Virus record (IMG/VR): IMGVR_UViG_3300028805_002025
Span: 1 to 64,000 of that record
Source of the DNA: a virus
Lineage: Duplodnaviria; Caudoviricetes
Reading direction: 5' to 3' (one strand)
DNA length: 64,000 nt
The position numbers and the translations under genes were made by a program. Below are positions 1,016 through 23,051 of this stretch, in pieces (the stretch's first letter is position 1; each line of letters starts with the position of its first letter). The notes beneath the pieces are model-generated. The model was not told the DNA's origin. It searched no databases and saw nothing but the letters and a program-made list of their open reading frames with translations.

Positions 1016-1072
1016 GGAATCTGCTTGTCTTCGGCTATTTTCGGTGCTGAATATAAATTGCTGTAAGATTCC
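1016..1072 (-). ncRNA. ACAGCA-stem RNA 1
   Basis: GGAATCT-T-ACAGCAA...AGATTCC terminal stem. Confidence 0.65.
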
Positions 1073-1077
1073 TAGTG

Positions 1078-1150
1078 TAGCGAAAATGGGAGTTGAACCC
1101 ATTGTTGTCACCTTATGAGAGTGCCGTAAGAACCGTTCTACGCTTTCGCT
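1078..1150 (-). tRNA. tRNA-Met/Ile2 (CAT)
   Basis: cloverleaf, anticodon loop CTCATAA. Confidence 0.8.
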
Positions 1151-1159
1151 ATGTTGCAA

Positions 1160-1244
1160 GGGAACTACGATTTGTTGGAATCGAACCAACTGTTCTGTTT
1201 TCAAGACAAAATTACTACCCAAGAGAAACTTGCTGTGAGTTCCC
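1160..1244 (-). ncRNA. ACAGCA-stem RNA 2, with Ser(TGA)-like anticodon arm and T arm
   Basis: GGGAACT-C-ACAGCAA...TTTGT CTTGAAA ACAGA...GTTGG TTCGATT CCAAC...AGTTCCC. Confidence 0.7.
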
Positions 1245-1249
1245 ATAAG

Positions 1250-1322
1250 TGGAGCTGAAGAGAATCGAACTCTCCCACGAACCTTGCAAAGGTCCATCGC
1301 CAGCCTTGGAACATGCAACCCC
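1250..1322 (-). tRNA. tRNA-Ala (TGC)
   Basis: cloverleaf, loop TTTGCAA. Confidence 0.85.
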
Positions 1323-1375
1323 AAATTGTCAGTCAGAAGGAATCGAACCTTCATCATACATCCGTCATGTTGACC

Positions 1376-1702
1376 TTAAAGAATTTCGACGACTTTGCCG
1401 TAGATCTGATTCCTGGATACCCAGCCGTTCATATGTCCGTGATTGTTTCCTATCAGATACTCCTTGTCATTTCTGATCGCATGGATCAAATGCAGGTAGT
1501 GATGTCCTCTCACCTTACATAGAACAATGTCTTTCTTCTTTAGCGTCGTCTCGTCAGTTACAGGCTCACAGATCACTGGTTGCCTGGACTTCAAAATAGG
1601 TGTCATGGAATTACCAATCCCAGTCACCTTACACGTCTCACCTCCTCTGAGGTGATTGCAGGTTTCTTGATTCTCGAACCCGCTGTAACTAAAATCTCTC
1701 AT
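1376..1702 (-). CDS. S24/S26 peptidase-like protein
   Basis: GNSMTP motif followed by DIVLCK...H. Confidence 0.6.
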   Translation of the reverse strand: MRDFSYSGFENQETCNHLRGGETCKVTGIGNSMTPILKSRQPVICEPVTDETTLKKKDIVLCKVRGHHYLHLIHAIRNDKEYLIGNNHGHMNGWVSRNQIYGKVVEIL

Positions 1703-1872
1703 ATGTTATATAAATTAGGTTCGCTTACCTAAAGCAATCGAGACTCTTGCAAGTTACATAGTAGTATCTCCTCATTTCTGGGCGGGGAACTCACTTGTCC
1801 AAGGGATTTATTTTACCCGCTTACCTCCGATTCACACGTGCTCCGCTTTTCTACTATATAAGTCTCAATGTG

Positions 1873-2007
1873 CAGGGCCAGAAGGATTCGAACCTCCGTC
1901 GTTTATCATTTCCTGGATACGTGCTTTGAAGCGTCAACGCTTTCCGAAGTCAGCGTGTATAGTACCAGGTCGTAACAAATTGTTTTAGACCGCTAAACTA
2001 CAACCCT
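1873..2007 (-). ncRNA. tRNA body with a ~80-nt structured insert replacing the anticodon arm
   Basis: acceptor AGGGTTG/TGGCCCT, D arm and T arm intact; insert CCTGG...GCTGACTTCGGAAAGC...CCAGG. Confidence 0.6.
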
Positions 2008-2019
2008 ATAAAAATACAA

Positions 2020-2990
2020 AAAGGCTGAGAATTTGACCTTAATGTTGATGCCTTTATACAACGGTTGGACGTTGCTCTTCACACGCCACCTTACGATGGA
2101 CGTAGACACCATGCACGATAGTTTTGCGAAAACCACCAAACTCTTACTGATTTAAACCTTCCGGTACAGAATCATAACATTCAGTTCACCACCACGCTCT
2201 TGCGGACTCACAGGATGCCTCCTGTTAACGCAGATGACTACTTTTACTCGTTCATCGGATTCCTTGCAAGTCCCCGATGCCTCCATTTTGCAGGAGAGAT
2301 AAGTGCATTTTATCTGCTCAGTGTCGCACACTTTCGCTTTTAATCTTTATTTTAAAAGACGACAGGATTCGAACCTGTAACACTCGGCTTTTGAGGCCAA
2401 TGCTCTACCGTTGAGCTACACTTTCCCAACTAGTGGAAGACGAGGTGCGACCCTTAGCATCCGTGCCTTTTGAGCACAGCCCACTAAATCGCCTTCCTAT
2501 GCCAAGACCACCACAGTCCTGTAGCACTAATACCCATCCTCAGCCTTACGGTTCTTAACGCTTATAGGCTACGCCCTTTCACGTTAAGACGGATGTTTAT
2601 CTGAACCCAACCCGCCAACTGGTGACTATTGAATCGGGAACAACAAGATGATCTATTGTATCGCTACTCAACCAAAGCGGTTAACCTTGGTAGTACGTCG
2701 CACCGTTTTACCTACGGAACTCCGTACCGCATCCTGTTCTTTTCAGTGAAATACCCCGGTTTCCCGGAACATCTGAGTCGGGCTAGTTGACAATCTCCAA
2801 CTCATTTATCCCATCACTGGATTATCCTTATGGCTACGAAAGCTAGCCAGTCTCCTCGTTTTCAGCCGAAGCCTACAACGTGGGAGGTCTTTATGCCAAT
2901 CAGATACTTAGGAAGCCTCGTCACCGTAAGGGTATCTTTTAGTCAACGGACAACTCCCTATCCGTCTATCCCCTAGCCAGTGTGACTGAC
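2020..2990 (-). ncRNA. GOLLD-like large ncRNA with an embedded tRNA-like element
   Basis: ~970 nt without a long ORF, hairpin-rich, inside a tRNA array; CTCAAAAGG and 3' AATTCTCAGCC resemble GOLLD as I recall it; not model-verified. Confidence 0.55.
2354..2425 (-). tRNA. tRNA-like element (CAA loop, weak acceptor stem) inside the GOLLD-like RNA
   Basis: D, anticodon and T arms present; acceptor stem degenerate. Confidence 0.5.
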
Positions 2991-2996
2991 ATGTTG

Positions 2997-3111
2997 TTGA
3001 GAGTGCAGAATTTGCATCTGCGAAGCTTCCGAAGAAGCACATTACTCACGAAAGCAATGCCCAGTTGTCTACATCTGGTACGTGTACCAGTTCTCCTTTG
3101 GTAACTCTCAA
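2997..3111 (-). ncRNA. novel tRNA-shaped RNA, copy A
   Basis: 8-bp acceptor, AGGAGAA-hairpin-ATGTAGACAA D region, long variable arm, TGCAAAT T loop. Confidence 0.75.
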
Positions 3112-3272
3112 ATGTTCTTTTACGCTAAAGAATAACGTATCGATGGCACGATTTGTTTTTTTGTATACAAAGAGTCAATTGCCTCTAAGTAAACTCAATT
3201 CTGTAATTTTAGGAACATTGGCCACTGTTTCCCAAGCATTAACGTGCCCTTCAGCCTTACAGAATAATTTAG

Positions 3273-3384
3273 TTGAAGGAGGTGGATTTGCACACACCGA
3301 AGCTCCGAAGAGCACACTAAGCACGAACTTAGTGCCCATTTGTCTACATCGTCATTACTGACGTTCTCCTCTGGTATCCTTCAA
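3273..3384 (-). ncRNA. novel tRNA-shaped RNA, copy B
   Basis: same architecture with covarying stems. Confidence 0.75.
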
Positions 3385-3388
3385 ATGG

Positions 3389-3501
3389 TTGGAAGAGGCA
3401 GATTTGCACTGCCGAAGCCTCCTTAGAGGCACATTAAGCACGAACTTAATGCCGATTTGTCTACATCCGGATCTCTCCGGTTCTCCTCTCGTATCTTCCA
3501 A
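3389..3501 (-). ncRNA. novel tRNA-shaped RNA, copy C
   Basis: same architecture. Confidence 0.75.
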
Positions 3502-3505
3502 ATTG

Positions 3506-3619
3506 TTGAGAGAGTGGGATTTGCAAACCACGAAGCTACGTTAAGTAGCACAGTATTTACCATACTGCCCATTTGTCTACATCTATCATTGCTGATAGTT
3601 CTCCTCTGGTATCTCTCAA
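3506..3619 (-). ncRNA. novel tRNA-shaped RNA, copy D
   Basis: same architecture; anticodon-position loop GGTAA. Confidence 0.75.
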
Positions 3620-3624
3620 ATGTG

Positions 3625-3698
3625 TAGCGGCACACAGGAGTCGCACCTGGTGTTTTTTGCTTATGAGACAAACGTGTAAACTGTTTCACTCTGCCGCT
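3625..3698 (-). tRNA. tRNA-Met/Ile2 (CAT)
   Basis: TTTGT CTCATAA GCAAA arm. Confidence 0.75.
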
Positions 3699-3808
3699 AT
3701 GTTTAAAACATGTTGTTCGTCCGTATGAAGCTTCATCAACACTCTGCAATCGTTTCAGCAGTCATAGCTTAACAGTGGTACTTGTTATCAACATGTTTAT
3801 ATTTTTAA

Positions 3809-3882
3809 GGAAACGTGCTCCGAATGCGACTTTTTATACAACTTAAAATATTCAAGTAATTTGTATATTGCTGTCCGTTTCC
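3809..3882 (-). ncRNA. ACAGCA-stem RNA 3
   Basis: GGAAACG-G-ACAGCAA...CGTTTCC. Confidence 0.65.
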
Positions 3883-3957
3883 ACTAGTTTTATTTCTTAC
3901 GGTGCAAAGATATATATTTTTTTTCGTAATTCCAAATTTCTGAGGAACTTTTTTTTG

Positions 3958-4215
3958 TTAATCTTCGCTAATTACGCCTTTGACCTTTTTCAACTCGGCT
4001 AGCATTCCATTAAGTTTATCCCCATCGAAAGTGATGTCGTATGACTCCTCCTCGATAACCTGGAGATTGTCCCTCAAGATGCTAACCAGATCTGCCTTCA
4101 GTGCTGCATGATATTTCACACCGACGATCTTCTGAGCTTCTTTCTTGTCGTAACCCGCATCGACCAAGTTCTTATACAAGGTCTGTCTAAATTCACTATC
4201 TAATATCTTGTCCAT
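3958..4215 (-). CDS. hypothetical protein
   Basis: likely start MDKIL, just downstream of a host-type promoter. Confidence 0.65.
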   Translation of the reverse strand: MDKILDSEFRQTLYKNLVDAGYDKKEAQKIVGVKYHAALKADLVSILRDNLQVIEEESYDITFDGDKLNGMLAELKKVKGVISED

Positions 4216-4314
4216 TTTACTTGTTTTGTTTAACAGTGCAAAGATATATATTTTTTTTCGTATTTCCAAATTTCTAAGGAACTTTTTTTTCGAAAAAGTG
4301 AATTTTTTTTATCT

Positions 4315-4675
4315 TGGTGGACCTGGTGGGAGTCGAACCCACGTCCAAACTACCATCCCATAAGAGATTATACAAGCTTTTCAATTTTTGGCAAGAGGTT
4401 TTCTTCCTCAGAACGTTTTATATGTGTCGCCGTCACAGGGGGATGACTGGAAAGGTCATCTTGACCACCACCTCATTTTGAGAAAACGAGGAAAACAAAT
4501 TACCAGGATGTTCTGTTCCTAAGAGCCTGGCCTCTCGGCTTCGCTTACGCTGCTACAGCGTATGCATAAGCAGGAGAGAAATCTATCTCGCCGTTTATAT
4601 TTTTTCGCTATTTCTAGTGTATGCCCACTGCTTGTCTCTTACCAAACGCATAGCTGTCTATTCCGTTTCAAGCCC
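4315..4675 (-). ncRNA. ssrA: tmRNA
   Basis: acceptor GGGCTTG/CAGGTCC with G3.U70, T arm, ACCA end; tag frame GEIDFSPAYAYAVAA* at 4592-4545. Confidence 0.92.
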
Positions 4676-4737
4676 ATTTGTGTAAGATAAATATAATAAT
4701 GTATCAGAATATTCAAAGATCACTTCTTTTTTAAGTG

Positions 4738-4850
4738 TTGAAGGAGCTAGATTTGCACTAGCGAAGCTTCCGAAGAAGCACATCAAGCACGAACTTGATG
4801 CCGATTTGTCTACATCTGGATTGCTCCAGTTCTCCTCTCGTATCCTTCAA
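4738..4850 (-). ncRNA. novel tRNA-shaped RNA, copy E
   Basis: same architecture as copies A-D. Confidence 0.75.
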
Positions 4851-4851
4851 A

Positions 4852-4929
4852 TGGTGTTGGTGGAGGGACTTGAACCCCCGACCTCCTCGGTATCAGCGAG
4901 GTGCTGCTAACCAGCTGAGCTACACCAAC
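4852..4929 (-). tRNA. tRNA-Ile (GAT)
   Basis: loop CTGATAC, encoded CCA. Confidence 0.9.
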
Positions 4930-5038
4930 ATGTTATAGGATCGATTACCCTGTTTGCCGGATTAGGCTATCACCAGCGTTTCAGAAACTTAGGTCTGCGT
5001 TCTCACTCTTAAACTATCGCAGAGCAATCTCCTATTTT

Positions 5039-5602
5039 CTATGTATCATAAGCAGCAATGAACTGCCTCAGTATATCCTTCCTCTTCATAACGCCCGTTG
5101 GGATGCAACGCTTCAACGCTTCTTCGTCGTTGTTCATAATCATATGCCTCACCTTCGTGGCTGAGATATTGTCAGCAATTGTTCCCCTGGCATTCAGTTT
5201 AAAGGAAACAAAGTTCCTTGTGATGAATGGTGGAAACCAGAGCATGATAATCTCGAATCCATCTGAGTAATAGATGGTAAACTCCGGGGATCTGGTGATA
5301 CCGACAATCTTACTATAGAGGTAGAAACCCCAATCGTGAGAGTTGTCAGATTCATCCGTAAGATCATCAAGAGGACGAATGTCTATTCTTCCGGCATCGT
5401 CGCCGAACTTCTCGGTAACAGCCTCCATAGCCATTTCCAACCTCATATTGATGGGGATTGGATTCCTCTTGTTGAGTTTGTCTGCTGATCCTACCAGGAC
5501 GAGTACCTTGTCGTTCTCGTTGAGTGCCTGGTTAATCAACTCCAGATGCCCATTATGTATGGGCTGTAATCTTGCGATTATTACGCCTACTTTTTCTGCC
5601 AT
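5039..5602 (-). CDS. nicotinamide/nicotinate mononucleotide adenylyltransferase (NadM-like)
   Basis: RLQPIHNGH, GSA, NP and ISATKVR motifs; start MAEKVG. Confidence 0.8.
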   Translation of the reverse strand: MAEKVGVIIARLQPIHNGHLELINQALNENDKVLVLVGSADKLNKRNPIPINMRLEMAMEAVTEKFGDDAGRIDIRPLDDLTDESDNSHDWGFYLYSKIVGITRSPEFTIYYSDGFEIIMLWFPPFITRNFVSFKLNARGTIADNISATKVRHMIMNNDEEALKRCIPTGVMKRKDILRQFIAAYDT

Positions 5603-5627
5603 CTTACTTACTTCTTTTTTAAAAATC

Positions 5628-5692
5628 GGAAGCTGTTTTTTTGGATAAATGTTTACAAAAGTCATGTCCTATTACAATTGCTGTAAGCTTCC
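5628..5692 (-). ncRNA. ACAGCA-stem RNA 4
   Basis: GGAAGCT-T-ACAGCAA...AGCTTCC. Confidence 0.65.
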
Positions 5693-5722
5693 TGGTGTGG
5701 GATTCGAACCCACTGTTTCCAG

Positions 5723-5800
5723 TGTATGGTGATGGATTCGAACCATCGTGTAAATACTAGTTTGTAGGACTAGCCCCTTCAACCGCTTGGATAACCATAC
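5723..5800 (-). tRNA. tRNA-Val (TAC)
   Basis: CTAGT CCTACAA ACTAG arm. Confidence 0.8.
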
Positions 5801-5837
5801 ATGGTGCAAGATAGACCTTATAGAATAAATCATCTTG

Positions 5838-6730
5838 CGCTGAGAATTTTAATATGTTTTCTCAAACATCCCACGTTTACTGAACTTGTGGTTCTAAACT
5901 GACCGATTTCCAACAAACCGATGAAAGCTCCGTCTCTTCCGAAGTGCCATCTATGGATCTGTACAAGTCACGTGACCCTTCCGGATGTCTTTTGGACATT
6001 CCTGTGCAGATCTTTCTACGGTTTTCATCCTCCTTCCGAAGTCAGAGTCCTATATTACCCGTATTGTGGGCGTAGTAGGATTTGAACCTACACATTTGCT
6101 CTCCCAAGGAGGAAAGCCCATACCCTCGTATGCGTTACATAACACCCATTTAAAAACTAGGCATCTTCGAAGTGAGCTTATCTGGAATAACTCTATCGGT
6201 AACAGTACATGAGAAAGGCGTGTACAGGGTGTCTTAGCGTTTACCCAGCCAATCTACTTTCGGTGATACCGACTTATCTCTCTATCCATTGAAGGCGGGT
6301 GGAGTAAATCTTGCTACCACGCCAATAAGCAATGCCTAGCTAGTGCTTGCGGAGAGGATTTGAACCTTCTGTTTCAGTTCAGCTGTTGTCAGCCTCTATC
6401 TGCGTTTATACCTATTAAACTTCTCAAGCATTTGGGACCGTTTGTTATTGAAAGTGTGACTCGGCCTTTCAAGGAGACCCGAAGGTTTCTTATGACACGC
6501 TGCTCGTTGGTATCAATGATTCCTACTATTACGGTTCTCTCCTCCCACTTGTAACGTTGGCATGAACTTCCTGTCCACAAATTACTTTCTTTGAACTATT
6601 CTATCTCCCGCCGTATATCGCAGTTGCTTCTATTCCGGTAAAATGTGTCACCGACAGGCTCGATGCCAAGATGCCTTTGTTGGTTATTTCTTAAACCAGC
6701 CACTCACAGTGTCCACGATGGGATCTTTGT
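5838..6730 (-). ncRNA. cluster of unidentified structured RNAs and degenerate tRNA-like elements
   Basis: no convincing ORF; T arms at ~6067-6147 and ~6344-6430; stem-closed unit 6156-6339; repeated ACTTCGGAAG motif. Confidence 0.4.
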
Positions 6731-7378
6731 ATTTGTGACCAAACCAACCGATTGCTATGCAAACTATTGTCTCAATCATTGTCTTTAATTTTAATGTTAA
6801 ACTTCCGTTTCTGAATTACAGTGCAAAGATATATATTTTATTTCGTAATTCCAAATTTTTGAGGAACTTTTTTTGTTAAAAAGTGTTTACTCATCTTCCA
6901 ACTGTTTCATCATATCCCTTTTCAACGTTCTCCTCAACATTGTTTGACCAGCCTTTTTAATCACATGTCCGCAATGCCCAAGACTCTTATGCTTCTTGTT
7001 GCCAGAATGTGTGTTATGGTCTTTCGTTGGATAAGTAAACCCCTGCCTGTATGTCCAAGGCATAACCATATTAAGTAATTTCCATCCAGTCATATCTTCT
7101 GTTCAACTTTCTAATTAATTTCCTCACCATCCTTTTTCCTTCTCTGGTGATTGCCTTTGCTGTCTCCTCGTCGTAAGGTAAAAAATGCGTAATCATATTC
7201 TAAATACAAATTTTTTTAAATATAACATAGAGTCCGCTGTGCTTGAATCTGACACCGTAGATGTCCATCCACCAGGCAAGTCTCTTATGATACAACTCTA
7301 TTGCTTTTTTTCTCGGTTTGACGAAAATCGTCGTACAGACCTCAAAGAGTCTGTTTCTGATAAAAGACTTCGGAACTC

Positions 7379-7591: not shown

Positions 7592-7610
7592 AACTCCTCT
7601 GTTTATTAGG

Positions 7611-7684: not shown

Positions 7685-7691
7685 ATTACTG

Positions 7692-10020: not shown

Positions 10021-10038
10021 AACATTCTCCTTTTTTTG

Positions 10039-10111
10039 AGCCTCCAGTCGGGGTCGAACCAACAACCTGCGGTTTACAAAACCGCTGCTCTGCCAATTGA
10101 GCTATGGAGGC
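10039..10111 (-). tRNA. tRNA-Thr (TGT)
   Basis: canonical cloverleaf. Confidence 0.92.
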
Positions 10112-15612: not shown

Positions 15613-15639
15613 ATTATTCTCCTTTTAACTTAAAATTTG

Positions 15640-15727
15640 TATAGGGGGTGGGATTCGAACCCACAACTACCTCTCGATAGACTGGTTTCGTAGACCAGGA
15701 CGGTCATCCATTACGTTTTACCCCTAC
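15640..15727 (-). tRNA. tRNA-Arg (ACG), long variable arm
   Basis: loop CTACGAA. Confidence 0.8.
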
Positions 15728-15736: not shown

Positions 15737-15877
15737 AGGGACGACCAGTTTAAAGTCCTGGCAGACTGTTAACTGATGCCTCACGCCCCTTGCGGGATTA
15801 ACGCTTCTTCAGTCCGTCTTCAGAATAATTAACAAAATGGAAATTTTACAAGAGAATTTACATTGCTGTACGTCCCT
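15737..15877 (-). ncRNA. ACAGCA-stem RNA 6, with a 3' pseudoknot
   Basis: AGGGACG-T-ACAGCAA...CTTGTAA loop...AGTC/GACT crossing CCAG/CTGG...CGTCCCT. Confidence 0.65.
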
Positions 15878-16324: not shown

Positions 16325-16339
16325 ACTCTTATTAAGTGA

Positions 16340-16845: not shown

Positions 16846-16889
16846 CACAATCACAGGTAATCTTACGAATAATCGTACATTTTACTTTG

Positions 16890-16963
16890 TACACCCGCTG
16901 GGACTCGAACCCAGGACCCACGGCTTAGAAGGCCGTTGCTCTAATCCACTGAGCTACGGGTGC
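16890..16963 (-). tRNA. tRNA-Arg (TCT)
   Basis: canonical. Confidence 0.92.
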
Positions 16964-16969
16964 ATCATC

Positions 16970-17248: not shown

Positions 17249-17497
17249 AGTTTCTTATTTTAAGTCCTTAACTCGTTTAGACACCTCCTCGATTTCATCC
17301 AGGAAGTCCTTCTTATTCCTTTCCTCGCCTTTTGCTATGTTTTTAGCAGCTACTATAATCACTGCAAGCAGCACAAGGCACGTAACCAATATAGCTATTA
17401 AACGTACTAACATTTCATTATCATTTTAGTTTTACCCTGCAAAGATATACAAAATCTAATTAATAACCAAATTTTTTAAATCTTTTTAAGGAAAAAG

Positions 17498-17575
17498 TGC
17501 GCCTGGTGAGACTCGAACTCACAGAATAACCTACATCCTAAGTGTAGTGACTTTACCAGATTTGCCCACAGGCGC
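17498..17575 (-). tRNA. tRNA-Leu (TAG), short variable arm
   Basis: CTACA CTTAGGA TGTAG arm. Confidence 0.85.
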
Positions 17576-17586
17576 AAAAAAAAAAC

Positions 17587-17722
17587 AGGAAACAATGTTT
17601 GTCTAAAGCCGTGTTTACCACTTTCACCAATGAATCGCTTTATTAGAGCGACCCATGAGGGAGTCGAACCCCCATACCGTTTAGGTAGCATTATTTTAGC
17701 CCAATACTGCTGTTTGTTTCCT
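17587..17722 (-). ncRNA. ACAGCA-stem RNA 7, YrlA-type permuted tRNA mimic
   Basis: order: T arm, closed acceptor ATGGGTCGCT/AGCGATTCAT, D arm. Confidence 0.8.
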
Positions 17723-17807
17723 TGGAGTACTGAGGGTGGGACTCGAACCCACATACACCAATTACGTGGTTAATGTCAGTGTATAAGACTGCGACGATAC
17801 CTCAGTA
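17723..17807 (-). tRNA. D-armless tRNA with TAT anticodon (Ile-AUA-like)
   Basis: CAGT CTTATAC ACTG arm, T arm, extended acceptor, CCA; D arm replaced by ~8 nt. Confidence 0.6.
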
Positions 17808-18020
17808 TTAAACCTCAATGGAATCATCATTCCAGTATGGATAGTTAGACTTCTCTGACTCTGGTGTATCTGTGACTTCATAAAAAGCGCCACAGAAGGG
17901 ACATGTCATATTTGTTACCATTGCATCATCCTCATCACAATCAGCGACTCCTATGTCACTAAGCATAACATTTCCTCCTATTATGAGGTCATGACCACAA
18001 CGCATACATTTTAATTCCAT
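17808..18020 (-). CDS. small zinc-ribbon protein
   Basis: CMRC...CPFC; likely start MELKC. Confidence 0.65.
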   Translation of the reverse strand: MELKCMRCGHDLIIGGNVMLSDIGVADCDEDDAMVTNMTCPFCGAFYEVTDTPESEKSNYPYWNDDSIEV

Positions 18021-18057
18021 AATGATAATATTAAAAGTCGTATTTTTCAACTAAAAA

Positions 18058-18327
18058 ACTGAGTGTGCTGTTACGCCAAAGGAGTCCCGTGTGTCCTACC
18101 GAAACCTAGGTTCATAACCCCGCCATACTGCCAGTACCTACTCTCTAAGGGTGGACTTTTACCCAAATGTAGGCAGCAGGCCATTGAGTTTACAATGTCA
18201 TGTTGTTGATTACCCCTCACAGTCAATATCTCCCAGGCTACTTTCTAACTCCTGGTTGCTTAAGGCTCACAGGGAACTTTATGCCCACTCCTTAGAAGAT
18301 TGCTGCTCTCAAGCCAACTTCCTCAGT
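18058..18327 (-). ncRNA. 23S rRNA-mimic RNA (GTPase centre with a PTC-like insert)
   Basis: GAGGAAGTTGGCTTGAGAGCAGCAATCTTCTAAGGAG...GCGTAACAGCACACTCAG matches 23S H43/H44. Confidence 0.7.
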
Positions 18328-18338
18328 GTGTCTACTTG

Positions 18339-18412
18339 AGCGATTGCTGGGAATTGAACCCAGTACCCCTCGTCTGGACGACGAATGCTCTCCCGAATGA
18401 GCTACTAACCGC
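18339..18412 (-). tRNA. tRNA-Gly (TCC), atypical anticodon loop
   Basis: TCGT CGTCCAG ACGA arm. Confidence 0.7.
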
Positions 18413-18422
18413 AAAAAAAAAA

Positions 18423-18568
18423 GGAAACGGTTGTTGTTTATTTTTAGTGCTCTAAACCAGCTGAGCTACCGCCACATGTAGTTTGAAAAAGTGTGGCGGG
18501 CAGGATTCGAACCTACGACCCCTAGCTTGGATTGCTTTTCTAAACGATAACACTTGCTGTACGTTTCC
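18423..18568 (-). ncRNA. ACAGCA-stem RNA 8, YrlA-type permuted tRNA mimic
   Basis: order: T arm, CCGCCACA/TGTGGCGG closed acceptor, D arm. Confidence 0.8.
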
Positions 18569-18574
18569 ACATTG

Positions 18575-18646
18575 AGCGGGTAATGGGAATCGAACCCACA
18601 TCAGAAGATTGGAAATCTCCTACACTAACCGTTGTGCTATACCCGC
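18575..18646 (-). tRNA. tRNA-Gly (TCC)
   Basis: loop TTTCCAA. Confidence 0.88.
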
Positions 18647-18652
18647 ATGGTG

Positions 18653-18733
18653 AGCGAATGAAGGGAGTCGAACCCTCGTCCCCTGCTTGGAAGGCAGGTA
18701 TAATACGCTGACGCACCGTTATACGACACTCGC
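18653..18733 (-). tRNA. tRNA-Gly (TCC), enlarged D loop
   Basis: loop CTTCCAA. Confidence 0.82.
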
Positions 18734-18920
18734 ATGAAGTGGGTTGTAACCGTTACCACTATACCTACACATACGTTTAGGCAGCTAGTTTGGAAGGGCG
18801 TGGCTTCCAGGGACTACCGACGTTACGTTGAGCCTCAAATCTCTTTTGATGTCACTGGTGACGGATTCGAACCGCCACGCTAAGCCTAGGACATAGCACC
18901 AATCCAGTGAAGTGTTTTTG

Positions 18921-19001
18921 AGTGAATGAAGGGAGTCGAACCCTCGTCTCCTGCATGGCAAGCAGGTATAATGCGCAAATGCTCCGTTATACGACACTCG
19001 C
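18921..19001 (-). tRNA. tRNA-Gly (GCC), enlarged D loop
   Basis: loop TTGCCAT; near-duplicate of the 18653 gene. Confidence 0.82.
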
Positions 19002-19090
19002 AAATATGAGGGTTTCTATCAACCCTCTAAGTCATCCGTGAACTATTATTTCCCCTAGTTACAGTCGCATTCACGGTTACTCGACTCGTG

Positions 19091-19162
19091 AGCGGGTAAA
19101 GGGATTCGAACCCTCGACCTTCTGCATGGCAAGCAGACGCACTACCCCTGTGCTATACCCGC
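19091..19162 (-). tRNA. tRNA-Gly (GCC)
   Basis: canonical. Confidence 0.9.
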
Positions 19163-19375
19163 AAGAATGAACTAGCTTTATGACAGTTACTCCAGGACTG
19201 GAGGATGTGCTGTCTGGTTTGGTACTAGTTCTGAGCTGTTTACCTTTTGCAGCAACCGTTTATCTAATCATCTGGTTAAAAGGAGAATGTAGACAGATTT
19301 GATGACTGATAAACCTGCGGTTTTTTTTGCGTGTACCGCCAAAGCATAGACTAAATTCTCCTAATGTTACACTCT

Positions 19376-20401
19376 TTACTGGAGCGTCTTAACAATTGCA
19401 GCGCGACCAGTAACTGGATTTACGCCCTGTCCTTCCCAACTGTTAACCTTAACGCCACGATTTGTGAGGTAATCAGCAACGACTGCTGCTCTCTTCTCGG
19501 ACAACTGCTTGTTAAAATCATCTGTGCCCTCTGGTGAAGCTGTTCCAATCACGTCAACGATGGCATCATTGCCAATCTGATTGAGGATGTTCTTAGCCTC
19601 TAGTGAGAGTTCAGCCTTGCCCTGCTCAAACTGGACAATCCAAGCACTGTTGTCAATTACAGTGACTGTGTTGTCAACAATCTTTACCACAGTTGGTTTA
19701 CCGTCAATACAGGTCTTAAGGTCTTTCTCCAACTGAGCGTTCTCGCTGTTGAGACGGTCAATCTCACTAATCATTGCCCCAACATCCCAAGTCTTGAAAC
19801 TGTGAGTTCCATTGGAGTTCTTGAAGTGATAGATATAACTACCCATCAAGGCAATCAGCGCGTTGTTGTGGTTGAACTGAATGTGACCATTGTTTCTAAG
19901 ACCCCAGTACACTGCTGGACTGAATACCAATGAATGTGCTCTCTTCTTACCAATATTGAATGTGAAATCAATACCAGTCTTTGCGACTACATCATTGCCA
20001 CCGTTGTTAAGGACGTGCTTTAGACCCAAACCTACGATTGCAGATGTCTCGAACACACGAGGCTTTCCGTTGTAGCCAAGGAACATGTTCTGGATGTTCA
20101 AACTACCATTCAAACCAAGGTTGATAGCCTTGAACGCTGTCTTAGCATCAGCGAAATGATTGTCAGCAAGGCTTGTGGTTGCCTCGAACTGTAAGCCAAG
20201 AACTGGAGTGATACCCTTTGTAGCAACAAGACCCAAGGTCGTGTTAACAGGGAATGCTGAGTTAAGGTCAAGTGGTGTGGTTACACCAGCCGTTGCTCCC
20301 AATCCAATGTTGTCAAGAGCGTTACTGTTCTCAGTCGCAATCTGTGCTTGCGCACATACTACAGCACTAAAGAGTGCCAACATTAAAATTACTTTCTTCA
20401 T
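19376..20401 (-). CDS. OmpA-family outer membrane protein
   Basis: signal peptide, beta-barrel region, coiled coil, OmpA_C motif GTASPEG..FNKQLSEKRA..V..YL. Confidence 0.9.
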   Translation of the reverse strand: MKKVILMLALFSAVVCAQAQIATENSNALDNIGLGATAGVTTPLDLNSAFPVNTTLGLVATKGITPVLGLQFEATTSLADNHFADAKTAFKAINLGLNGSLNIQNMFLGYNGKPRVFETSAIVGLGLKHVLNNGGNDVVAKTGIDFTFNIGKKRAHSLVFSPAVYWGLRNNGHIQFNHNNALIALMGSYIYHFKNSNGTHSFKTWDVGAMISEIDRLNSENAQLEKDLKTCIDGKPTVVKIVDNTVTVIDNSAWIVQFEQGKAELSLEAKNILNQIGNDAIVDVIGTASPEGTDDFNKQLSEKRAAVVADYLTNRGVKVNSWEGQGVNPVTGRAAIVKTLQ

Positions 20402-20498
20402 TTTTTTCTGTTTAAAACTTTTATTAAAAAATTATTACTTCAAGGTATAACTAGTGCAAAGATATAAAAATTTTTTCAAAAAACCAAATTTTTTCCAA

Positions 20499-20813
20499 TT
20501 AAAATGGCAAATCATCCAACTTTTTAGCTTTCTTAATCGTCCATTTATATTGAAATACGTCTGGTTTCCCGACAACCTTTTCTCTCTTGAAACCAGGTAT
20601 CCTCGTTGTATAACCTTTCCTCTCAAGCGTTCTCACTACTAGTTCAAACGCATCGTAACAATATGGGTGCTCTGAAGTATCAATACGTAACGTCAGAGTT
20701 GTGTCCTCATCCAACCCAGCCTCCTCTATGTTAACAAGCAACCTCTTGATGAAGAAGAAGCAATATGCTGGGAAGTTGACATCATCCTTTGTTATCTTCT
20801 TATACTCTCCCAT
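20499..20813 (-). CDS. hypothetical protein
   Basis: 104 aa, ends in DDLPF (SSB-like tail). Confidence 0.65.
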   Translation of the reverse strand: MGEYKKITKDDVNFPAYCFFFIKRLLVNIEEAGLDEDTTLTLRIDTSEHPYCYDAFELVVRTLERKGYTTRIPGFKREKVVGKPDVFQYKWTIKKAKKLDDLPF

Positions 20814-20833
20814 TAGTTTAATTTTAAATGTCG

Positions 20834-20906
20834 TCGGGGCGACACGGCTCGAACGTGCGACCTCAGCATCCCAAATGCCGTGCTCTACCTACTGAGCTAC
20901 ACCCCG
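20834..20906 (-). tRNA. tRNA-Pro (TGG)
   Basis: loop TTTGGGA. Confidence 0.9.
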
Positions 20907-20938
20907 ATTTGCCCATTTAAGGTATGGGCTACCATAAC

Positions 20939-21082
20939 AGGAAACCTTTGTTGTTTACTAAAAGCTCTACCAACTAAGCTACCCCGCCATTTTCTGTGTG
21001 CCTAGTGGCGGGGGTGGGACTCGAACCCACGACCTCTCGCTTATGATGCAAAATGAAACTAAATCATTGCTGCAAGTTTCCT
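20939..21082 (-). ncRNA. ACAGCA-stem RNA 9, permuted tRNA mimic with a CAT loop
   Basis: GCAGCAA variant; TTTGC ATCATAA GCGAG arm, T arm, CCCCGCCA/TGGCGGGG, D arm. Confidence 0.8.
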
Positions 21083-21084
21083 TG

Positions 21085-21157
21085 TCGGGAAAACTGGACT
21101 CGAACCAGCGACCACAGCATCCCAAATGCCGCATTCTACCTACTGAACTACTCCCCG
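21085..21157 (-). tRNA. tRNA-Pro (TGG)
   Basis: loop TTTGGGA. Confidence 0.9.
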
Positions 21158-21330
21158 ATTAATTACTGTGCAAAGATATATATTTTTTTTCACAATTCCA
21201 AATTTTTCGTAACTTTTTTAAGCATTATTCAGCATGCCACCGACACTGCATTATCATTAGGGCACGGTGAAATATGCCGATTGCTCCTATACTACGCCCT
21301 TTAGCCATCATATAGTCCTCTTAAACGCTT

Positions 21331-21411
21331 TGGGTGTTTGACAGGATTCGAACCTGCGGTGATAAACATGTGCCACAAACATGCGCCTTCAGCCACTCGG
21401 CCACAAACACC
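21331..21411 (-). tRNA. tRNA-His (GTG)
   Basis: loop TTGTGGC. Confidence 0.85.
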
Positions 21412-21419
21412 ATATTCTT

Positions 21420-21497
21420 TGGGTGAAAGGTGGGGACTCGAACCCACAGCCTCCTGGTTCACAGCCAGGCACTCTAACCAACTGAGCTACAATCACC
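21420..21497 (-). tRNA. tRNA-His (GTG)
   Basis: loop CTGTGAA. Confidence 0.9.
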
Positions 21498-21505
21498 ATG
21501 TAAAC

Positions 21506-21621
21506 AGGAATCGTTTCAACTAAGATGAGGCAGGATTCGAACCTACGTCTCCTGGTAAAATCCAGGGCTTTAGTCCACTAAGCTACTCGCCTGGAGTCTC
21601 TTAATCTGCTGTTAGATTCCT
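21506..21621 (-). ncRNA. ACAGCA-stem RNA 10, with a nested non-permuted tRNA-like body
   Basis: D arm, CCTGG ATTTTA CCAGG arm and T arm inside the AGGAATC/GATTCCT stem. Confidence 0.75.
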
Positions 21622-21623
21622 TG

Positions 21624-21704
21624 TCTGGAGGGTTGGATTCAAACCAACGAACTCTGCTATCTCATCACGGCTACTTTGCAGAACTATGTTGCCGTTTCCT
21701 CCAG
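21624..21704 (-). ncRNA. D-armless tRNA-like RNA
   Basis: CTGGAGG/CCTCCAG acceptor, T arm, no canonical anticodon loop. Confidence 0.55.
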
Positions 21705-21710
21705 GATTTG

Positions 21711-21784
21711 TCTAGGTAGAGGGACTCGAACCCCCACTTCCTACGCTCCAAACGTAGAGGCTTAACCAATTAGCTGACACCTAG
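21711..21784 (-). tRNA. tRNA-Pro (TGG)
   Basis: loop TTTGGAG. Confidence 0.85.
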
Positions 21785-21793
21785 ATATTTTTG

Positions 21794-21887
21794 TCGGAGG
21801 GGAGGGATTCGAACCCCCCTACTGCAAGACCAGTACGACAATTTGTTAAAGCAGGGCAGATTTACAGTCTGCTGCCGTTACCCTCCG
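21794..21887 (-). tRNA. D-armless tRNA with Tyr (GTA) anticodon and C1:G72
   Basis: GCAGA CTGTAAA TCTGC arm; D arm replaced by TAACGGCA; ~36-nt variable region. Confidence 0.65.
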
Positions 21888-21893
21888 ATTGAC

Positions 21894-21958
21894 GGGAACT
21901 CTTTTTAAACGGATTTTGAAGTTGCAGTTCAATGTTTAAACACTTGCTGTTAGTTCCC
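21894..21958 (-). ncRNA. ACAGCA-stem RNA 11, displaying a Cys (GCA) anticodon stem-loop
   Basis: TTGAA CTGCAAC TTCAA inside GGGAACT/AGTTCCC. Confidence 0.75.
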
Positions 21959-22094
21959 TTATTTTTTCGTTTAATTCTTCTATCTCTGATTCGACATATC
22001 CAAGATTCCTACTGAACCATTCTTTTCTACCATTGAGGTAATCTATTCTCTCCTTAAGCAATTTAATGCTACTTTCAACACTCATCATATTATA

Positions 22095-22535
22095 TTATTT
22101 AAATTTCCCAAGCCGTATTGCATCAACCAGATATGTGTACACTCCGTACCAATCGGTCTCAGCATCGAATCCAAACTTATCGTCTATACCGACATTAAAG
22201 TAAGTCTTCTCGTCAAAGCATGACAGGTCATTGTTCTTGGTCTCTGGATTAATGTTGATGTAGTCGAACTTGATATGGTTCTCCTCGAACACCTTACCAT
22301 ACACCTCCTCAATTGTCTCCCTGTAGGATGAAGACCATAGTATGAGGCTGATGTTACTGGCGTAACTCATGAGTTCCAATGCTTCCTTCGCAAAGGGATA
22401 CCACTTGTGTTCCTCCTTGTTATGGTAACAAGCCTTGAAGATTGTATCATGGATGTCAACCAGTACATATATCTTCTCCCAATTGCGTTGGCGCATTCTC
22501 TCAAATGCCCTATCGAAACTTTTTCTTATATCCAT
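22095..22535 (-). CDS. HAD-superfamily hydrolase-like protein
   Basis: VLVDIHDTI, LWSS, IDDK motifs; start MDIRKS. Confidence 0.65.
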   Translation of the reverse strand: MDIRKSFDRAFERMRQRNWEKIYVLVDIHDTIFKACYHNKEEHKWYPFAKEALELMSYASNISLILWSSSYRETIEEVYGKVFEENHIKFDYININPETKNNDLSCFDEKTYFNVGIDDKFGFDAETDWYGVYTYLVDAIRLGKFK

Positions 22536-22538
22536 AGC

Positions 22539-22609
22539 CACACTAAGATGGACTCGAACCACCTACCACAGAACGCTGGTTCTGCATGCTACCGTTACAC
22601 CACAGGTGA
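22539..22609 (-). pseudogene. degenerate tRNA
   Basis: D and T arms present; 6-nt anticodon loop; poor acceptor stem. Confidence 0.5.
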
Positions 22610-22615
22610 AATATC

Positions 22616-22703
22616 GTTGGGTGAGCAGGATTCGAACCTGCGGTGGATGTAACACCACAATAGCTTCAGAGACTACCGCCTTAAACCACTCGGCCATCGC
22701 CCA
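22616..22703 (-). tRNA. tRNA-Gln (CTG), long variable arm
   Basis: loop CTCTGAA, U1:A72. Confidence 0.8.
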
Positions 22704-22815
22704 ATAAAAATTTTAACCTCAACTTACCCTCTACCTAAGAATAGGAAGGGGATTCGAACCCCTTTGTTGCATTTACCACAATCTCGGTCAGCGAGGTGGA
22801 GTCGAACCACCATTC

Positions 22816-22887
22816 GTTGGGGTACTCGGATTCGAACCAAGAATGACAGGACCAGAATCTGTAGTGTTACCATTACACCATACCCCA
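22816..22887 (-). tRNA. tRNA-Gln (CTG)
   Basis: loop TTCTGGT. Confidence 0.9.
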
Positions 22888-22987
22888 AAGTAAATAGAGA
22901 CGTGCGCAATGTAGACATGGATTCATCCTTTCGGCAATCCCTAGTACGGCAATTATCCGTAAATCCACCGTCTCTACTTATAATAAA

Positions 22988-23051
22988 GGGAACATTTTTT
23001 TTGTTTTCCTAAATACACATTCTAGTAACTTAATACTTGCTGTATGTTCCC
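22988..23051 (-). ncRNA. ACAGCA-stem RNA 12
   Basis: GGGAACA-T-ACAGCAA...TGTTCCC. Confidence 0.65.

What the first reader, a model, noticed from the sequence alone, without database searches (positions are those of the whole stretch)
1016..23051. Twelve ACAGCA-stem small RNAs carrying tRNA mimics: a candidate new Y-RNA class
Seen: 12 elements (1016, 1160, 3809, 5628, 10118, 15737, 17587, 18423, 20939, 21506, 21894, 22988) share a 7-8 bp covarying terminal stem starting (A/G)GG, followed by an unpaired RCAGCAR. The cargo varies: permuted tRNA bodies (T arm, loop-closed acceptor, D arm; 17587, 18423, 20939, and 10118 with a partial D arm), non-permuted bodies (1160, 21506), a lone anticodon stem-loop (21894) and a pseudoknot (15737). 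Established: bacterial YrlA RNAs have this permuted tRNA module on a Ro60/Rsr-binding stem, and rsr-yrl loci associate with rtcB. The stem here differs from the canonical Ro60 site. The window encodes a DUF2828-type TROVE/vWA-like protein (37544) and RtcB (29045). Inference: ACAGCA stems are the binding site of the DUF2828 protein, forming a modular RNP that displays tRNA decoys or recruits repair.
Basis: partly seen in the sequence, partly recalled or inferred. Interest (0 to 1): 0.9.

Follow-up and report, generated by a model that had tools for sequence, protein, structure and literature searches.

The report
Partner RNAs of phage Ro60-like protein
Twelve small RNA genes hidden among this giant phage's tRNA genes share one "handle" (a short clamp helix plus the letters ACAGCAA) that travels, in very different phages and some bacteria, with a ring-shaped Ro60-like protein also encoded here, so they are most likely that protein's partner RNAs: an apparently undescribed cousin of the Ro/Y-RNA particle that displays tRNA look-alikes.

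Summary
All 12 elements lie at the stated coordinates on the minus strand. Each has a perfect 7-9 bp closing helix, then 0-2 nt, then RCAGCAR. No other copy exists in the 241-kb record.

They belong to a large family. In phages whose DUF2828 proteins are only 33-50% identical to the window's, the same handle forms tandem arrays directly beside the DUF2828 gene, on its strand. A DNA pattern blind to the protein recovers arrays whose records carry DUF2828 in 26 of 27 cases. No other neighbouring gene is conserved.

The window's DUF2828 protein (37544-39214) models confidently as Ro60 (Z 24.7) with an intact MIDAS motif. Four cargos are covariation-supported permuted tRNAs, and others are anticodon-arm mimics.

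No Rfam family reaches threshold. The canonical Y-RNA GNCGAA site is absent from every handle. Short relatives score just below threshold on the Dictyostelium Class I RNA model, whose consensus holds the same ACAGCAA at the same offset.

Physical binding, expression and the decoy or repair function are untested. RtcB is linked only in this clade. I found no published description. This scan has already noted the same pairing on other DNA. Verdict: a real new variant of the Ro/Y-RNA system.

The parts
1016..1072 (-). Handle RNA e1016, 57 nt. Stem GGAAUCU/AGAUUCC, then U, then ACAGCAA. Short cargo of unclear fold. Starts 5 nt after the tRNA at 1078-1150.
   Evidence: model R1 25.7 bits
1160..1244 (-). 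Handle RNA e1160, 85 nt. Cargo has an anticodon-like hairpin (loop CUUGAAA) and a T arm but no D arm. Ends 9 nt before the tRNA at 1078-1150.
3809..3882 (-). Handle RNA e3809, 74 nt. Cargo is one long hairpin.
   Evidence: R1 21.9 bits
5628..5692 (-). Handle RNA e5628, 65 nt. Degenerate anticodon-arm-like cargo; orthologues carry the loops CUUUUAA and CUUGUAA. Position 7 of the stem changes compensatorily between orthologues (U-A here, A-U in G002).
   Evidence: R1 32.3 bits
10118..10245 (-). Handle RNA e10118, 128 nt. Permuted tRNA: anticodon-like arm, T arm, acceptor closed by a loop, remnant D arm. Ends 6 nt before tRNA-Thr 10038-10111.
   Evidence: YrlA 26.4 bits; 7 orthologues
15737..15877 (-). 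Handle RNA e15737, 141 nt. Stem AGGGACG/CGUCCCU. Complex cargo of unknown fold; the claimed pseudoknot was not verified. Ends 9 nt before tRNA-Arg 15639-15727.
17587..17722 (-). Handle RNA e17587, 136 nt, with a 9-bp stem. Permuted tRNA-like cargo: T arm, closed 9-bp acceptor, 3-bp D arm. Flanked by tRNAs at 5 nt and 11 nt.
   Evidence: z -3.99
18423..18568 (-). Handle RNA e18423, 146 nt. Complete permuted tRNA: anticodon-like arm with loop AAUCCAA (AUUCCAA in orthologues), T arm, closed acceptor, D arm. Lies between two tRNA-Gly(UCC) genes, at 5 and 10 nt.
   Evidence: YrlA 32.4 bits; covariation
20939..21082 (-). Handle RNA e20939, 144 nt, motif GCAGCAA. Complete permuted tRNA with loop AUCAUAA. 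Starts 1 nt after tRNA-Pro 21084-21157.
   Evidence: (YrlA 37 bits)
21506..21621 (-). Handle RNA e21506, 116 nt, motif ACAGCAG. The handle encloses a non-permuted tRNA-like body (21522-21592) with an abnormal 6-nt anticodon loop. Ends 9 nt before tRNA-His.
   Evidence: (tRNA 43.6 bits)
21894..21958 (-). Handle RNA e21894, 65 nt. Cargo is a lone anticodon-arm mimic: 5-bp stem with loop CUGCAAC.
   Evidence: R1 47.5 bits
22988..23051 (-). Handle RNA e22988, 64 nt, with an 8-bp stem. Cargo is a hairpin with the 7-nt loop AUGUGUA. Starts 5 nt after tRNA-Glu 23057-23128.
   Evidence: R1 36.6 bits
37544..39214 (-). Gene for the 556-aa DUF2828/DUF7788 protein, the proposed protein partner. It has a Ro60-like ring plus a vWA domain with the MIDAS motif D336-x-S338-x-S340.
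29045..30409 (-). RtcB RNA ligase gene. This is context only: it is linked to DUF2828 in this huge-phage clade but not in the family at large.

Best explanation
The 12 elements are genes for small non-coding RNAs of a widespread family. The family is defined by a constant 'handle': the two RNA ends pair into a 7-9 bp clamp helix, and exactly 9 nt from the 5' end of the helix comes an invariant ACAGCAA. Opposite it, an A-rich stretch precedes the 3' strand of the helix. Between the two halves of the handle sits a freely exchangeable cargo. In this phage the genes are interleaved with tRNA genes on the same strand, and 10 of 12 lie within 11 nt of a tRNA. They are therefore most likely made as part of the tRNA operon transcripts and freed by the same cuts that free the tRNAs (inferred). 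The handle is most likely the docking site for the Ro60-shaped DUF2828 protein encoded at 37544-39214, as the conserved stem of a Y RNA docks on Ro60 (inferred from gene linkage and fold, not shown). The cargo projects from the ring and imitates tRNA parts. These include whole tRNAs permuted so that the acceptor end is closed by a loop, lone anticodon arms, and T arms. The particle could therefore bring tRNA-recognising proteins to the ring or soak them up; candidates are host anticodon nucleases, modification enzymes and repair enzymes (speculative). Shown here: the family, its structure, the fold of the protein and the genomic coupling. Inferred: binding, processing and function.
For: Structure. 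The 12 copies have 12 different stems that all pair. In 78 DUF2828 loci ACAGCAA occurs 202 times on the gene strand, and 109 of these are closable by at least 7 Watson-Crick pairs. On the other strand it occurs 33 times and none is closable; control heptamers close in 0-17% of cases. The handle helix covaries, with a score of 0.685 against 0.21 for shuffles and at most 0.21 for slid controls. The permuted tRNA body is 95% paired against at most 51% when slid, and 11 pairs change on both sides.

Coupling. Same-strand arrays lie next to the gene in phages with 33-50% identical proteins: 130 elements on the gene strand against 8 on the other. Genome-wide hits of model R1 cluster at the gene in small complete genomes. 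A protein-blind DNA pattern finds 27 arrays. Of these, 22 have DUF2828 inside the fetched locus, against 1 of 41 for pattern hits without closed elements (Fisher p = 4e-12), and 26 of 27 have it in the record. No other neighbouring gene is conserved. The same pairing occurs on bacterial contigs and in cultured phages.

Protein. The model has pLDDT 92. Ro60 is the best structural match over the full length, with Foldseek E = 3.6e-9 and Z = 24.7, while matches to vWA alone reach Z 11.5 at most. Ro60 is also the best PDB match by sequence profile. The MIDAS residues are invariant.

tRNA mimicry. YrlA sub-threshold matches fall on the T arm, acceptor and D arm. Anticodon-type loops (YUNNNRN) make up 48 of 126 seven-nt loops against 9.1 expected.
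Against: No experiment or structure prediction shows that the protein touches the RNA. In this window the RNAs lie 14.5-36.5 kb from the gene, not beside it, and no copy sits in the gene's leader. Linkage within the window's own clade is confounded by shared ancestry; the strong linkage comes from other phages. About 60% of family members have no detectable tRNA-like module, so 'tRNA display' cannot be the whole story. The handle does not resemble the canonical Ro60 site: GNCGAA is absent from all 12 handles, with one chance copy inside the e1016 cargo. One DUF2828 phage had no hit to model R1 (G028), and 35 of 78 loci have no element within 3 kb.
Confidence: 0.72

Rival explanations
1. The handle is a processing or punctuation signal. 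A host or phage endonuclease, not DUF2828, reads it to cut polycistronic tRNA and small-RNA transcripts. DUF2828 is linked only because it acts in the same tRNA-metabolism pathway.
For: In small phages the elements are packed head to tail with constant 4-5 nt linkers (consensus GAUA), which leaves no room for promoters. In the window, 10 of 12 abut tRNA genes within 11 nt (coordinates). A hammerhead-like ribozyme match lies next to one array (L056, 49 bits, below threshold).
Against: A processing signal would not need a variable, structured and often tRNA-like cargo kept by compensatory changes. It would also not need to follow one particular protein gene across phages that otherwise share no neighbouring genes. 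That protein has the fold of a known Y-RNA-binding ring.
Confidence: 0.14
2. The elements are cis-regulatory operators through which the DUF2828 protein controls its own mRNA or neighbouring ones, rather than free-standing partner RNAs.
For: In several phages one copy lies 2-7 nt upstream of the DUF2828 start codon (L025, L026, L033, L037, L043). G035, G017 and G029 show the same arrangement.
Against: In this window no copy lies near the gene. The copies sit between tRNA genes and not in front of coding genes. Arrays of 5-10 copies downstream of the gene do not fit an operator. This rival still implies protein-handle binding, so it would be a second use of the same interaction.
Confidence: 0.05
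3. The elements are decayed tRNA genes or a selfish short inverted-repeat element that has spread in tRNA arrays and has no function of its own.
For: They have terminal inverted repeats and variable content. Several cargos are tRNA-derived, and one holds a tRNA-like body with a defective 6-nt anticodon loop.
Against: The heptamer is invariant and the 9-nt offset constant in phages whose proteins are only about 33% identical. The stems differ in sequence yet keep pairing. Strand bias is strict, 130 against 8. The elements are coupled to one gene.
Confidence: 0.04
4. The elements are a new small self-cleaving ribozyme whose core is the handle, and they release themselves from array transcripts.
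For: They form tandem arrays with short constant linkers. Phage genomes are rich in small ribozymes (my own knowledge).
Against: Only 7 invariant nucleotides plus a helix are conserved, and the cargo is not conserved. No Rfam ribozyme family matches the elements. Nothing in the sequence points to a catalytic core.
Confidence: 0.02

Closest known systems
Ro60 (Rsr) with Y RNAs: bacterial and mycobacteriophage YrlA/YrlB (Rfam RF02553; Chen et al. 2014, PMC4201824) and Thermus phage phiLo Ro60 with Yrl1/Yrl2 (PMC12135203; PDB 9KOP, 9L5Y)
   Same: The protein is a ring plus a vWA domain with a MIDAS motif (Z 24.7 to Ro60). The small RNAs have ends that pair into a stem and a second module that mimics tRNA with a loop-closed acceptor. 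The RNA genes lie on the same strand as the protein gene and, in most phages, next to it. RtcB is nearby in this clade, as in the Salmonella rsr-yrlBA-rtcBA operon (PMC7790460).
   Different: The protein matches Pfam DUF2828/DUF7788 and not TROVE. The RNA handle is a clamp helix plus ACAGCAA, not the bulged GGUCCGA or GNCGAA helix. No element reaches the YrlA threshold; the best is 37 bits against 69. The permuted tRNAs keep an anticodon arm and are broken between the D arm and the anticodon arm, whereas YrlA runs its anticodon stem into the Ro-binding stem. There are many more copies per genome, 12 here, with very diverse cargos.
Class I RNAs of dictyostelid social amoebae (Rfam RF01414; Kjellin et al. 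2021, PMC7919456)
   Same: A short stem joins the 5' and 3' ends. The Rfam consensus has 9 nt, then ACAGCAA, then an A/U-rich variable part, an A-rich run, the 3' strand and CUG, which is the layout of the phage handle. Length is about 60 nt, like the short phage elements. Short phage relatives score 33.5-37.3 bits over the whole model.
   Different: All scores are below the 41.5-bit threshold, and the window's own short elements give no match at all. Only 7 of the 11 motif letters are shared. Class I RNAs are reported as unique to Dictyostelia, and their known direct binder is the RRM protein Rnp1A (PMC7919456). Whether Dictyostelium has a DUF2828 protein was not tested here. Phage cargos can be large tRNA mimics.
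Phage T4 stable RNAs species 1 and 2 (rnaC, rnaD) in the tRNA gene cluster (from my own knowledge, not checked here)
   Same: They are non-tRNA small RNAs encoded between phage tRNA genes and released by the tRNA-processing machinery. Their function is unknown.
   Different: No sequence comparison was made here. No ACAGCAA handle or Ro60-like partner is known for them.

Membership tests
YrlA / bacterial Y RNA (Rfam RF02553) | Covariance-model score at or above the gathering threshold of 69 bits | tested here: not met
   The best scores in the window are 37.0 (e20939), 32.4 (e18423), 31.4 and 26.4 bits. They cover mainly the tRNA-like part, model positions 24-84.
YrlA / bacterial Y RNA (Rfam RF02553) | tRNA-like module with a T arm, a loop-closed acceptor stem and a D arm | tested here: met
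   Present in e10118, e17587, e18423 and e20939. The T arm and acceptor are 100% paired, with 3 and 4 pairs changed on both sides across 9 orthologues and paralogues. It is absent from the other 8 elements.
YrlA / bacterial Y RNA (Rfam RF02553) | GNCGAA(N)G motif near the 5' end, the presumed Rsr-binding site (Chen et al. 2014) | tested here: not met
   No GNCGAA occurs in any of the 12 handles. One copy at position 37 of e1016 lies inside the cargo. The handle carries ACAGCAA instead.
YrlA / bacterial Y RNA (Rfam RF02553) | Encoded within about 4 kb of the Ro60 gene on the same strand | tested here: not met
   In the window the strand is the same but the distance is 14.5-36.5 kb. The feature is met for the DUF2828 gene in many other phages.
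Dictyostelid Class I RNA (Rfam RF01414) | Covariance-model score at or above 41.5 bits | tested here: not met
   e21894 and e22988 give no match at E <= 10. Relatives in small phages score 33.5-37.3 bits.
Dictyostelid Class I RNA (Rfam RF01414) | A short stem joining the 5' and 3' ends, with a conserved 11-nt motif next to the 5' strand | tested here: inconclusive
   The stem is present. ACAGCAA (7 of the 11 letters) sits at the same 9-nt offset as in the Rfam consensus. The first four letters of the motif are not conserved in phages.
Dictyostelid Class I RNA (Rfam RF01414) | Length of 42-65 nt and the upstream DUSE promoter | tested here: inconclusive
   Four of the 12 elements are 57-65 nt and the others 74-146 nt. 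The DUSE promoter is a eukaryotic element that cannot be expected in a phage, and I did not search for it.
Ro60 / TROVE protein family | Match to Pfam TROVE (PF05731) | tested here: not met
   There is no TROVE match anywhere in the 241-kb record. The protein matches only DUF2828 and DUF7788.
Ro60 / TROVE protein family | Fold consisting of a helical-repeat ring followed by a vWA domain with a MIDAS motif | tested here: met
   The model has pLDDT 92 and pTM 0.91. Against 1yvp_A, Z is 24.7 with 409 residues aligned at rmsd 3.8, covering residues 19-525. D336, S338 and S340 are invariant in 84 sequences. Ro60 is the best PDB match by sequence profile, E = 2.5e-4.
Ro60 / TROVE protein family | Binds Y RNA on the outer face of the ring | not testable with these tools
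   No protein-RNA prediction or experiment was available.
DUF2828 / DUF7788 (Pfam PF11443, PF25043) | Scores above the curated cut-offs | tested here: met
   DUF7788 scores 50.8 bits (cut-off 27.1) and DUF2828 39.6 bits (cut-off 29).

The most novel reading that the evidence does not exclude
The phage handle RNAs and the Class I RNAs of social amoebae are one ancient RNA family. Its conserved partner is the Ro60-shaped DUF2828 protein. On this reading the missing function of Class I RNAs and of DUF2828 proteins would be a second, Ro-like RNP system spanning viruses and cells. In phages the system would serve as a platform that presents tRNA and anticodon-arm decoys to host tRNA-cleaving defences.
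Probability: 0.2. Interest if true: 0.92.

Novelty: new variant of a known kind. Interest (0 to 1): 0.8.

Why it matters
Ro60 and its Y RNAs form a classic but still poorly understood RNA-protein particle, known from animals, about 5% of bacteria and a few phages. This finding points to a second, much more common phage version. A DUF2828 homologue matches in 577 GenBank phage records, including Felix O1-type, Listeria, Campylobacter, Staphylococcus, Enterococcus and Mycobacterium phages. In the four records I inspected, the small RNA genes beside it are not annotated.

It gives a testable function to a 'domain of unknown function' protein and to the unexplained spacers in phage tRNA arrays. 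It offers tractable laboratory systems for asking what a Ro-type ring does with tRNA look-alikes during infection. One candidate role is countering host nucleases that cut tRNA anticodon loops.

The shared signature with Dictyostelium Class I RNAs, published as unique to social amoebae, would make a long-standing question about those RNAs directly testable: do they bind a DUF2828 protein?

Tried and rejected
1. Rfam at gathering thresholds and at E <= 10 matches no family on the handles. Only tRNA, tmRNA, a GOLLD-like RNA and sub-threshold YrlA appear.

2. A megablast search of the array against GenBank phages found no relative, only one tRNA-sized hit.

3. The search for related loci with the single protein gave only 2 loci. 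The alignment A3 was needed.

4. A MAFFT alignment of 11 full elements (A2) misaligned the 3' ends and was dropped. A1 was not used for a model either.

5. Model R1 was built from short elements and does not find the long-cargo copies in the window. For those I relied on my own stem scan.

6. The marginal R1 hit at 957-998 (16.9 bits) has only a 5-bp A-U stem, so I do not count it. The other RCAGCAR sites in the array (283, 7157, 12349, 15291, 17200, 18300, 19483) have no closing stem and lie in reading frames. The site at 21869 lies inside a tRNA-Tyr-like gene.

7. There is no element in the leader of the window's DUF2828 gene.

8. The GGNNNNNN pattern of the window's clade misses the AG-type stems of distant phages, so the low counts for those genomes were misleading. 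One search corrected this.

9. The Protein Atlas search gave only viral DUF2828 clusters and no eukaryotic lead.

10. The supplements of Chen et al. 2014 are not held, and Avesson et al. 2011 has no PMC copy. [quoted passage not shown]

11. Full-text searches for DUF2828 and for the motif letters found no paper describing the RNA family.

12. Complex prediction was not used, because it cannot take RNA.

Full report
CONTEXT. The window is the first 64 kb of a 241,681-bp IMG/VR virus record estimated to be 75% complete. Its closest relatives lie on contigs of 400-430 kb. It is therefore a huge phage.

The first 23.6 kb hold a dense array of tRNA genes plus a tmRNA gene, all on the minus strand. 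Downstream on the same strand lie genes for RtcB, NAD synthase, TyrRS, a DUF2828/DUF7788 protein, a sigma factor and Hsp70.

THE OBSERVATION. Read on the minus strand, each of the 12 stated elements starts with (A)GG. Each forms a 7-9 bp helix with the other end of the element, and 11 of the 12 helices contain no G-U pair. After 0-2 unpaired nt comes ACAGCAA (9 elements), ACAGCAG (2) or GCAGCAA (1). The 12 stem sequences all differ. A strict scan of the whole 241-kb record finds these 12 and no others on either strand.

Ten of the 12 abut a tRNA gene on the same strand. The gap is 1-5 nt after the upstream tRNA or 6-11 nt before the downstream one (coordinates). This points to co-transcription with the tRNAs and release by the tRNA-processing cuts. 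That step is inferred.

A LARGE FAMILY. The same handle fills the tRNA arrays of related huge phages with strict strand bias: 11 against 0 and 14 against 0 copies in the two closest records, with none for the reversed control pattern. Ten to 20 copies occur on one strand in complete 400-kb genomes.

More telling are phages whose DUF2828 proteins are only 33-50% identical to the window's. Most of these have 60-190 kb genomes. In them, elements with the same layout form head-to-tail arrays directly beside the DUF2828 gene on its strand. Examples are ten copies in L086, six each in L075, L068 and L069, and five each in L062 and L085. Several loci also have a single copy 2-7 nt upstream of the start codon.

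The family consensus is as follows. A linker (often GAUA) is followed by A-G, 7 variable letters, ACAGCAA, an A/U-rich stretch and the cargo. Then come an A-rich run, 7 variable letters, C-U and the next linker.

A TEST THAT DOES NOT SELECT FOR STEMS. In 78 DUF2828 loci (554 kb), ACAGCAA occurs 202 times on the gene strand and 33 times on the other. Of these, 109 and 0 respectively are closable by at least 7 Watson-Crick pairs at the right offset. Heptamers of similar composition are closable in 0-17% of cases. On a MAFFT alignment of 48 short elements, every position of the 9-nt helix segment shows changes on both sides. The covariation score is 0.685, against 0.21 for shuffles and at most 0.21 for slid registers. 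One caveat applies: these 48 were picked by a stem criterion, so one search is the cleaner test.

COUPLING TO DUF2828. The evidence has five strands.
- Within 3 kb of the gene there are 130 closed elements on its strand and 8 on the other.
- A covariance model built from short elements (R1) was run over 30 whole genomes. Its hits fall next to the gene in the small complete genomes: all 4 hits in G034, both in G036, both in G043, all 4 in G045, all 5 in G052 and all 3 in G042.
- A DNA pattern that contains no protein information (the junction of two elements) was scanned over all viral contigs. Of 27 loci with at least 2 closed elements, 22 hold a DUF2828 gene inside the locus. Only 1 of 41 pattern hits without closed elements does so (Fisher p = 4e-12). 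Four of the remaining five have the gene elsewhere in the record, and the fifth is a 64%-complete fragment.
- No other protein family is conserved around the gene across these loci.
- The pairing also occurs on contigs of bacterial genome assemblies, including an 8-Mb Saprospiraceae chromosome.

It occurs in cultured phages as well. Escherichia phage skuden (Felixounavirus) has four unannotated elements in the tRNA array just after its 'vWFA protein' gene. Campylobacter phage CP30A has two just upstream, Listeria phage cka14 three upstream, and Mycobacterium phage Silverleaf two just downstream of its 'RNA-binding protein' gene. One of the Silverleaf elements has a permuted tRNA cargo. The skuden, Silverleaf and CP30A proteins match DUF2828/DUF7788; the cka14 protein was not put through Pfam.

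In the window's own clade the RNAs have moved into the tRNA arrays, 14.5-36.5 kb from the gene. No copy sits in the leader of the gene.

THE PROTEIN. AlphaFold2 on an 84-sequence alignment gives pLDDT 92 and pTM 0.91. The best solved structures are all Ro60: Xenopus, human, Deinococcus Rsr and Thermus phage phiLo. Foldseek gives E = 3.6e-9. VIA-align gives Z 24.7 with 409 residues aligned at rmsd 3.8, covering residues 19-525, whereas matches to the vWA domain alone stop at Z 11.5. A sequence profile also finds Ro60 as its best PDB match, in the vWA region (E = 2.5e-4). The MIDAS residues D336, S338 and S340 are invariant. Pfam TROVE does not match anywhere in the record. The protein is thus a Ro60 look-alike of a separate sequence family.

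THE CARGOS. Elements e18423 and e20939, with seven orthologues and paralogues from four other genomes, align to one pattern. The order is handle, a 3-5 bp anticodon-like arm with a 7-nt loop, a variable loop, the T arm, the 3' strand of the acceptor, a closing loop, the 5' strand of the acceptor, the D arm and the handle again. On this alignment 95% of cells pair, against at most 51% in slid registers, and 11 pairs change on both sides.

This is a whole tRNA broken between the D arm and the anticodon arm, with no free acceptor end. YrlA differs: its anticodon stem runs into the Ro-binding stem (consensus). Element e10118 and its seven orthologues have the same plan with a remnant D arm. Their anticodon-like loops differ between phages, for example CUGUCAA, CUUUUAA and CUGUUAA. 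Element e17587 has a T arm, a closed 9-bp acceptor and a 3-bp D arm. Element e21506 encloses an ordinary-order tRNA-like body whose anticodon loop has only 6 nt. Element e21894 carries a lone anticodon-arm mimic that is kept in orthologues by compensatory changes.

Across the family, 48 of 126 seven-nt hairpin loops that are not T loops fit the anticodon-loop pattern YUNNNRN, against 9.1 expected (p about 1e-22). About 60% of members show neither a T arm nor such a loop.

COMPARISON WITH KNOWN FAMILIES. No element reaches the YrlA threshold; the best score is 37 bits against 69. The matches cover the tRNA-like part only. The canonical binding motif GNCGAA (Chen et al. 2014) is absent from all 12 handles.

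Short elements of small phages score 33.5-37.3 bits over the entire Rfam model of Dictyostelium Class I RNAs, whose threshold is 41.5 bits. The consensus of that model has a 6-bp stem, 3 nt, ACAGCAA, an A/U-rich part, an A-rich run, the 3' strand and CUG. That is the phage layout, including the 9-nt offset. The window's own short elements give no such match. Kjellin et al. 2021 describe Class I RNAs as unique to Dictyostelia, with an RRM protein as the known direct binder. DUF2828 proteins are reported in plants and in mimivirus-like sequences. I could not test whether Dictyostelium has one.

RtcB. The ligase gene is present in only 6 of 27 complete or near-complete DUF2828 genomes, all from the window's clade. 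It is not a general partner of the system.

LITERATURE AND EARLIER NOTES. Full-text searches for DUF2828, for Ro60 with phage and Y RNA, and for the motif letters found no description of this RNA family. Iyer et al. 2021 mention only that some jumbo phages have a ROT/TROVE protein with a tRNA-like partner.

This scan has noted the same pairing many times on other DNA. I treated those notes as leads. The Class I match came from my own Rfam search, which I sent in the same turn as the first look-up of the notes. The Felix O1-type lead came from the notes, and I checked it on phage skuden.

VERDICT. The reading 'a new Y-RNA-like class partnered with the Ro60-like DUF2828 protein' is well supported by fold and by gene linkage. 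Binding, expression and the decoy or repair function remain to be shown.

Noticed in passing
window 2022-2497 (-): A GOLLD-like large RNA scores 69.4 bits over the full Rfam model (E = 2.5e-16), below the 150-bit threshold. tRNA-Leu(CAA) at 2353-2426 lies inside it, as is typical of phage GOLLD RNAs.
   Followed up: no
window 4315-4675 (-): A phage-encoded tmRNA (78 bits) with the tag peptide GEIDFSPAYAYAVAA.
   Followed up: no
window 21795-21887 (-): A probable class II tRNA-Tyr with anticodon loop CUGUAAA, a long variable arm and a 7-bp acceptor. ARAGORN and Rfam tRNA both miss it; the only hit is tRNA-Sec at 25 bits. The phage also encodes a TyrRS at 33942-35231.
   Followed up: partly
window 1873-2007 (-): The Rfam tRNA model matches end to end over 135 nt (34.4 bits). 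This may be a tRNA gene with an insertion or intron of about 60 nt.
   Followed up: no
window 24840-47542 (-): A block of translation and stress genes unusual for a phage: TelA, RtcB, NAD synthase, TyrRS, a sigma-70-type factor, IF3 and DnaJ (both by synteny with L003) and Hsp70/DnaK.
   Followed up: partly
window 57262-58448 (-): A second tRNA cluster with Gln x2, Leu x4 and one odd 96-nt tRNA-like gene with a 4-letter anticodon call. It contains no handle RNAs.
   Followed up: no
L056 2829-2916 (+): A match to the RAGATH-1 hammerhead ribozyme (49 bits against a 56.3 threshold) lies just upstream of the handle RNA in the leader of a DUF2828 gene. It may play a role in processing.
   Followed up: no
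L276 6355-6585 (Escherichia phage skuden, MN850585.1): The annotated 'hypothetical protein' skuden_68 lies on the opposite strand over handle RNA 6362-6486. It is probably a false gene call over an RNA gene.
   Followed up: no
L277 4489-4669 (Mycobacterium phage Silverleaf, NC_055790.1): The protein that phage annotators call 'RNA-binding' or 'Ro-like' is of the DUF2828/DUF7788 type. Its two downstream RNAs carry the (G/A)CAGCAA handle and not the canonical Y-RNA site. Some mycobacteriophage 'Ro' loci may therefore belong to this system rather than to classical Ro/YrlA.
   Followed up: partly
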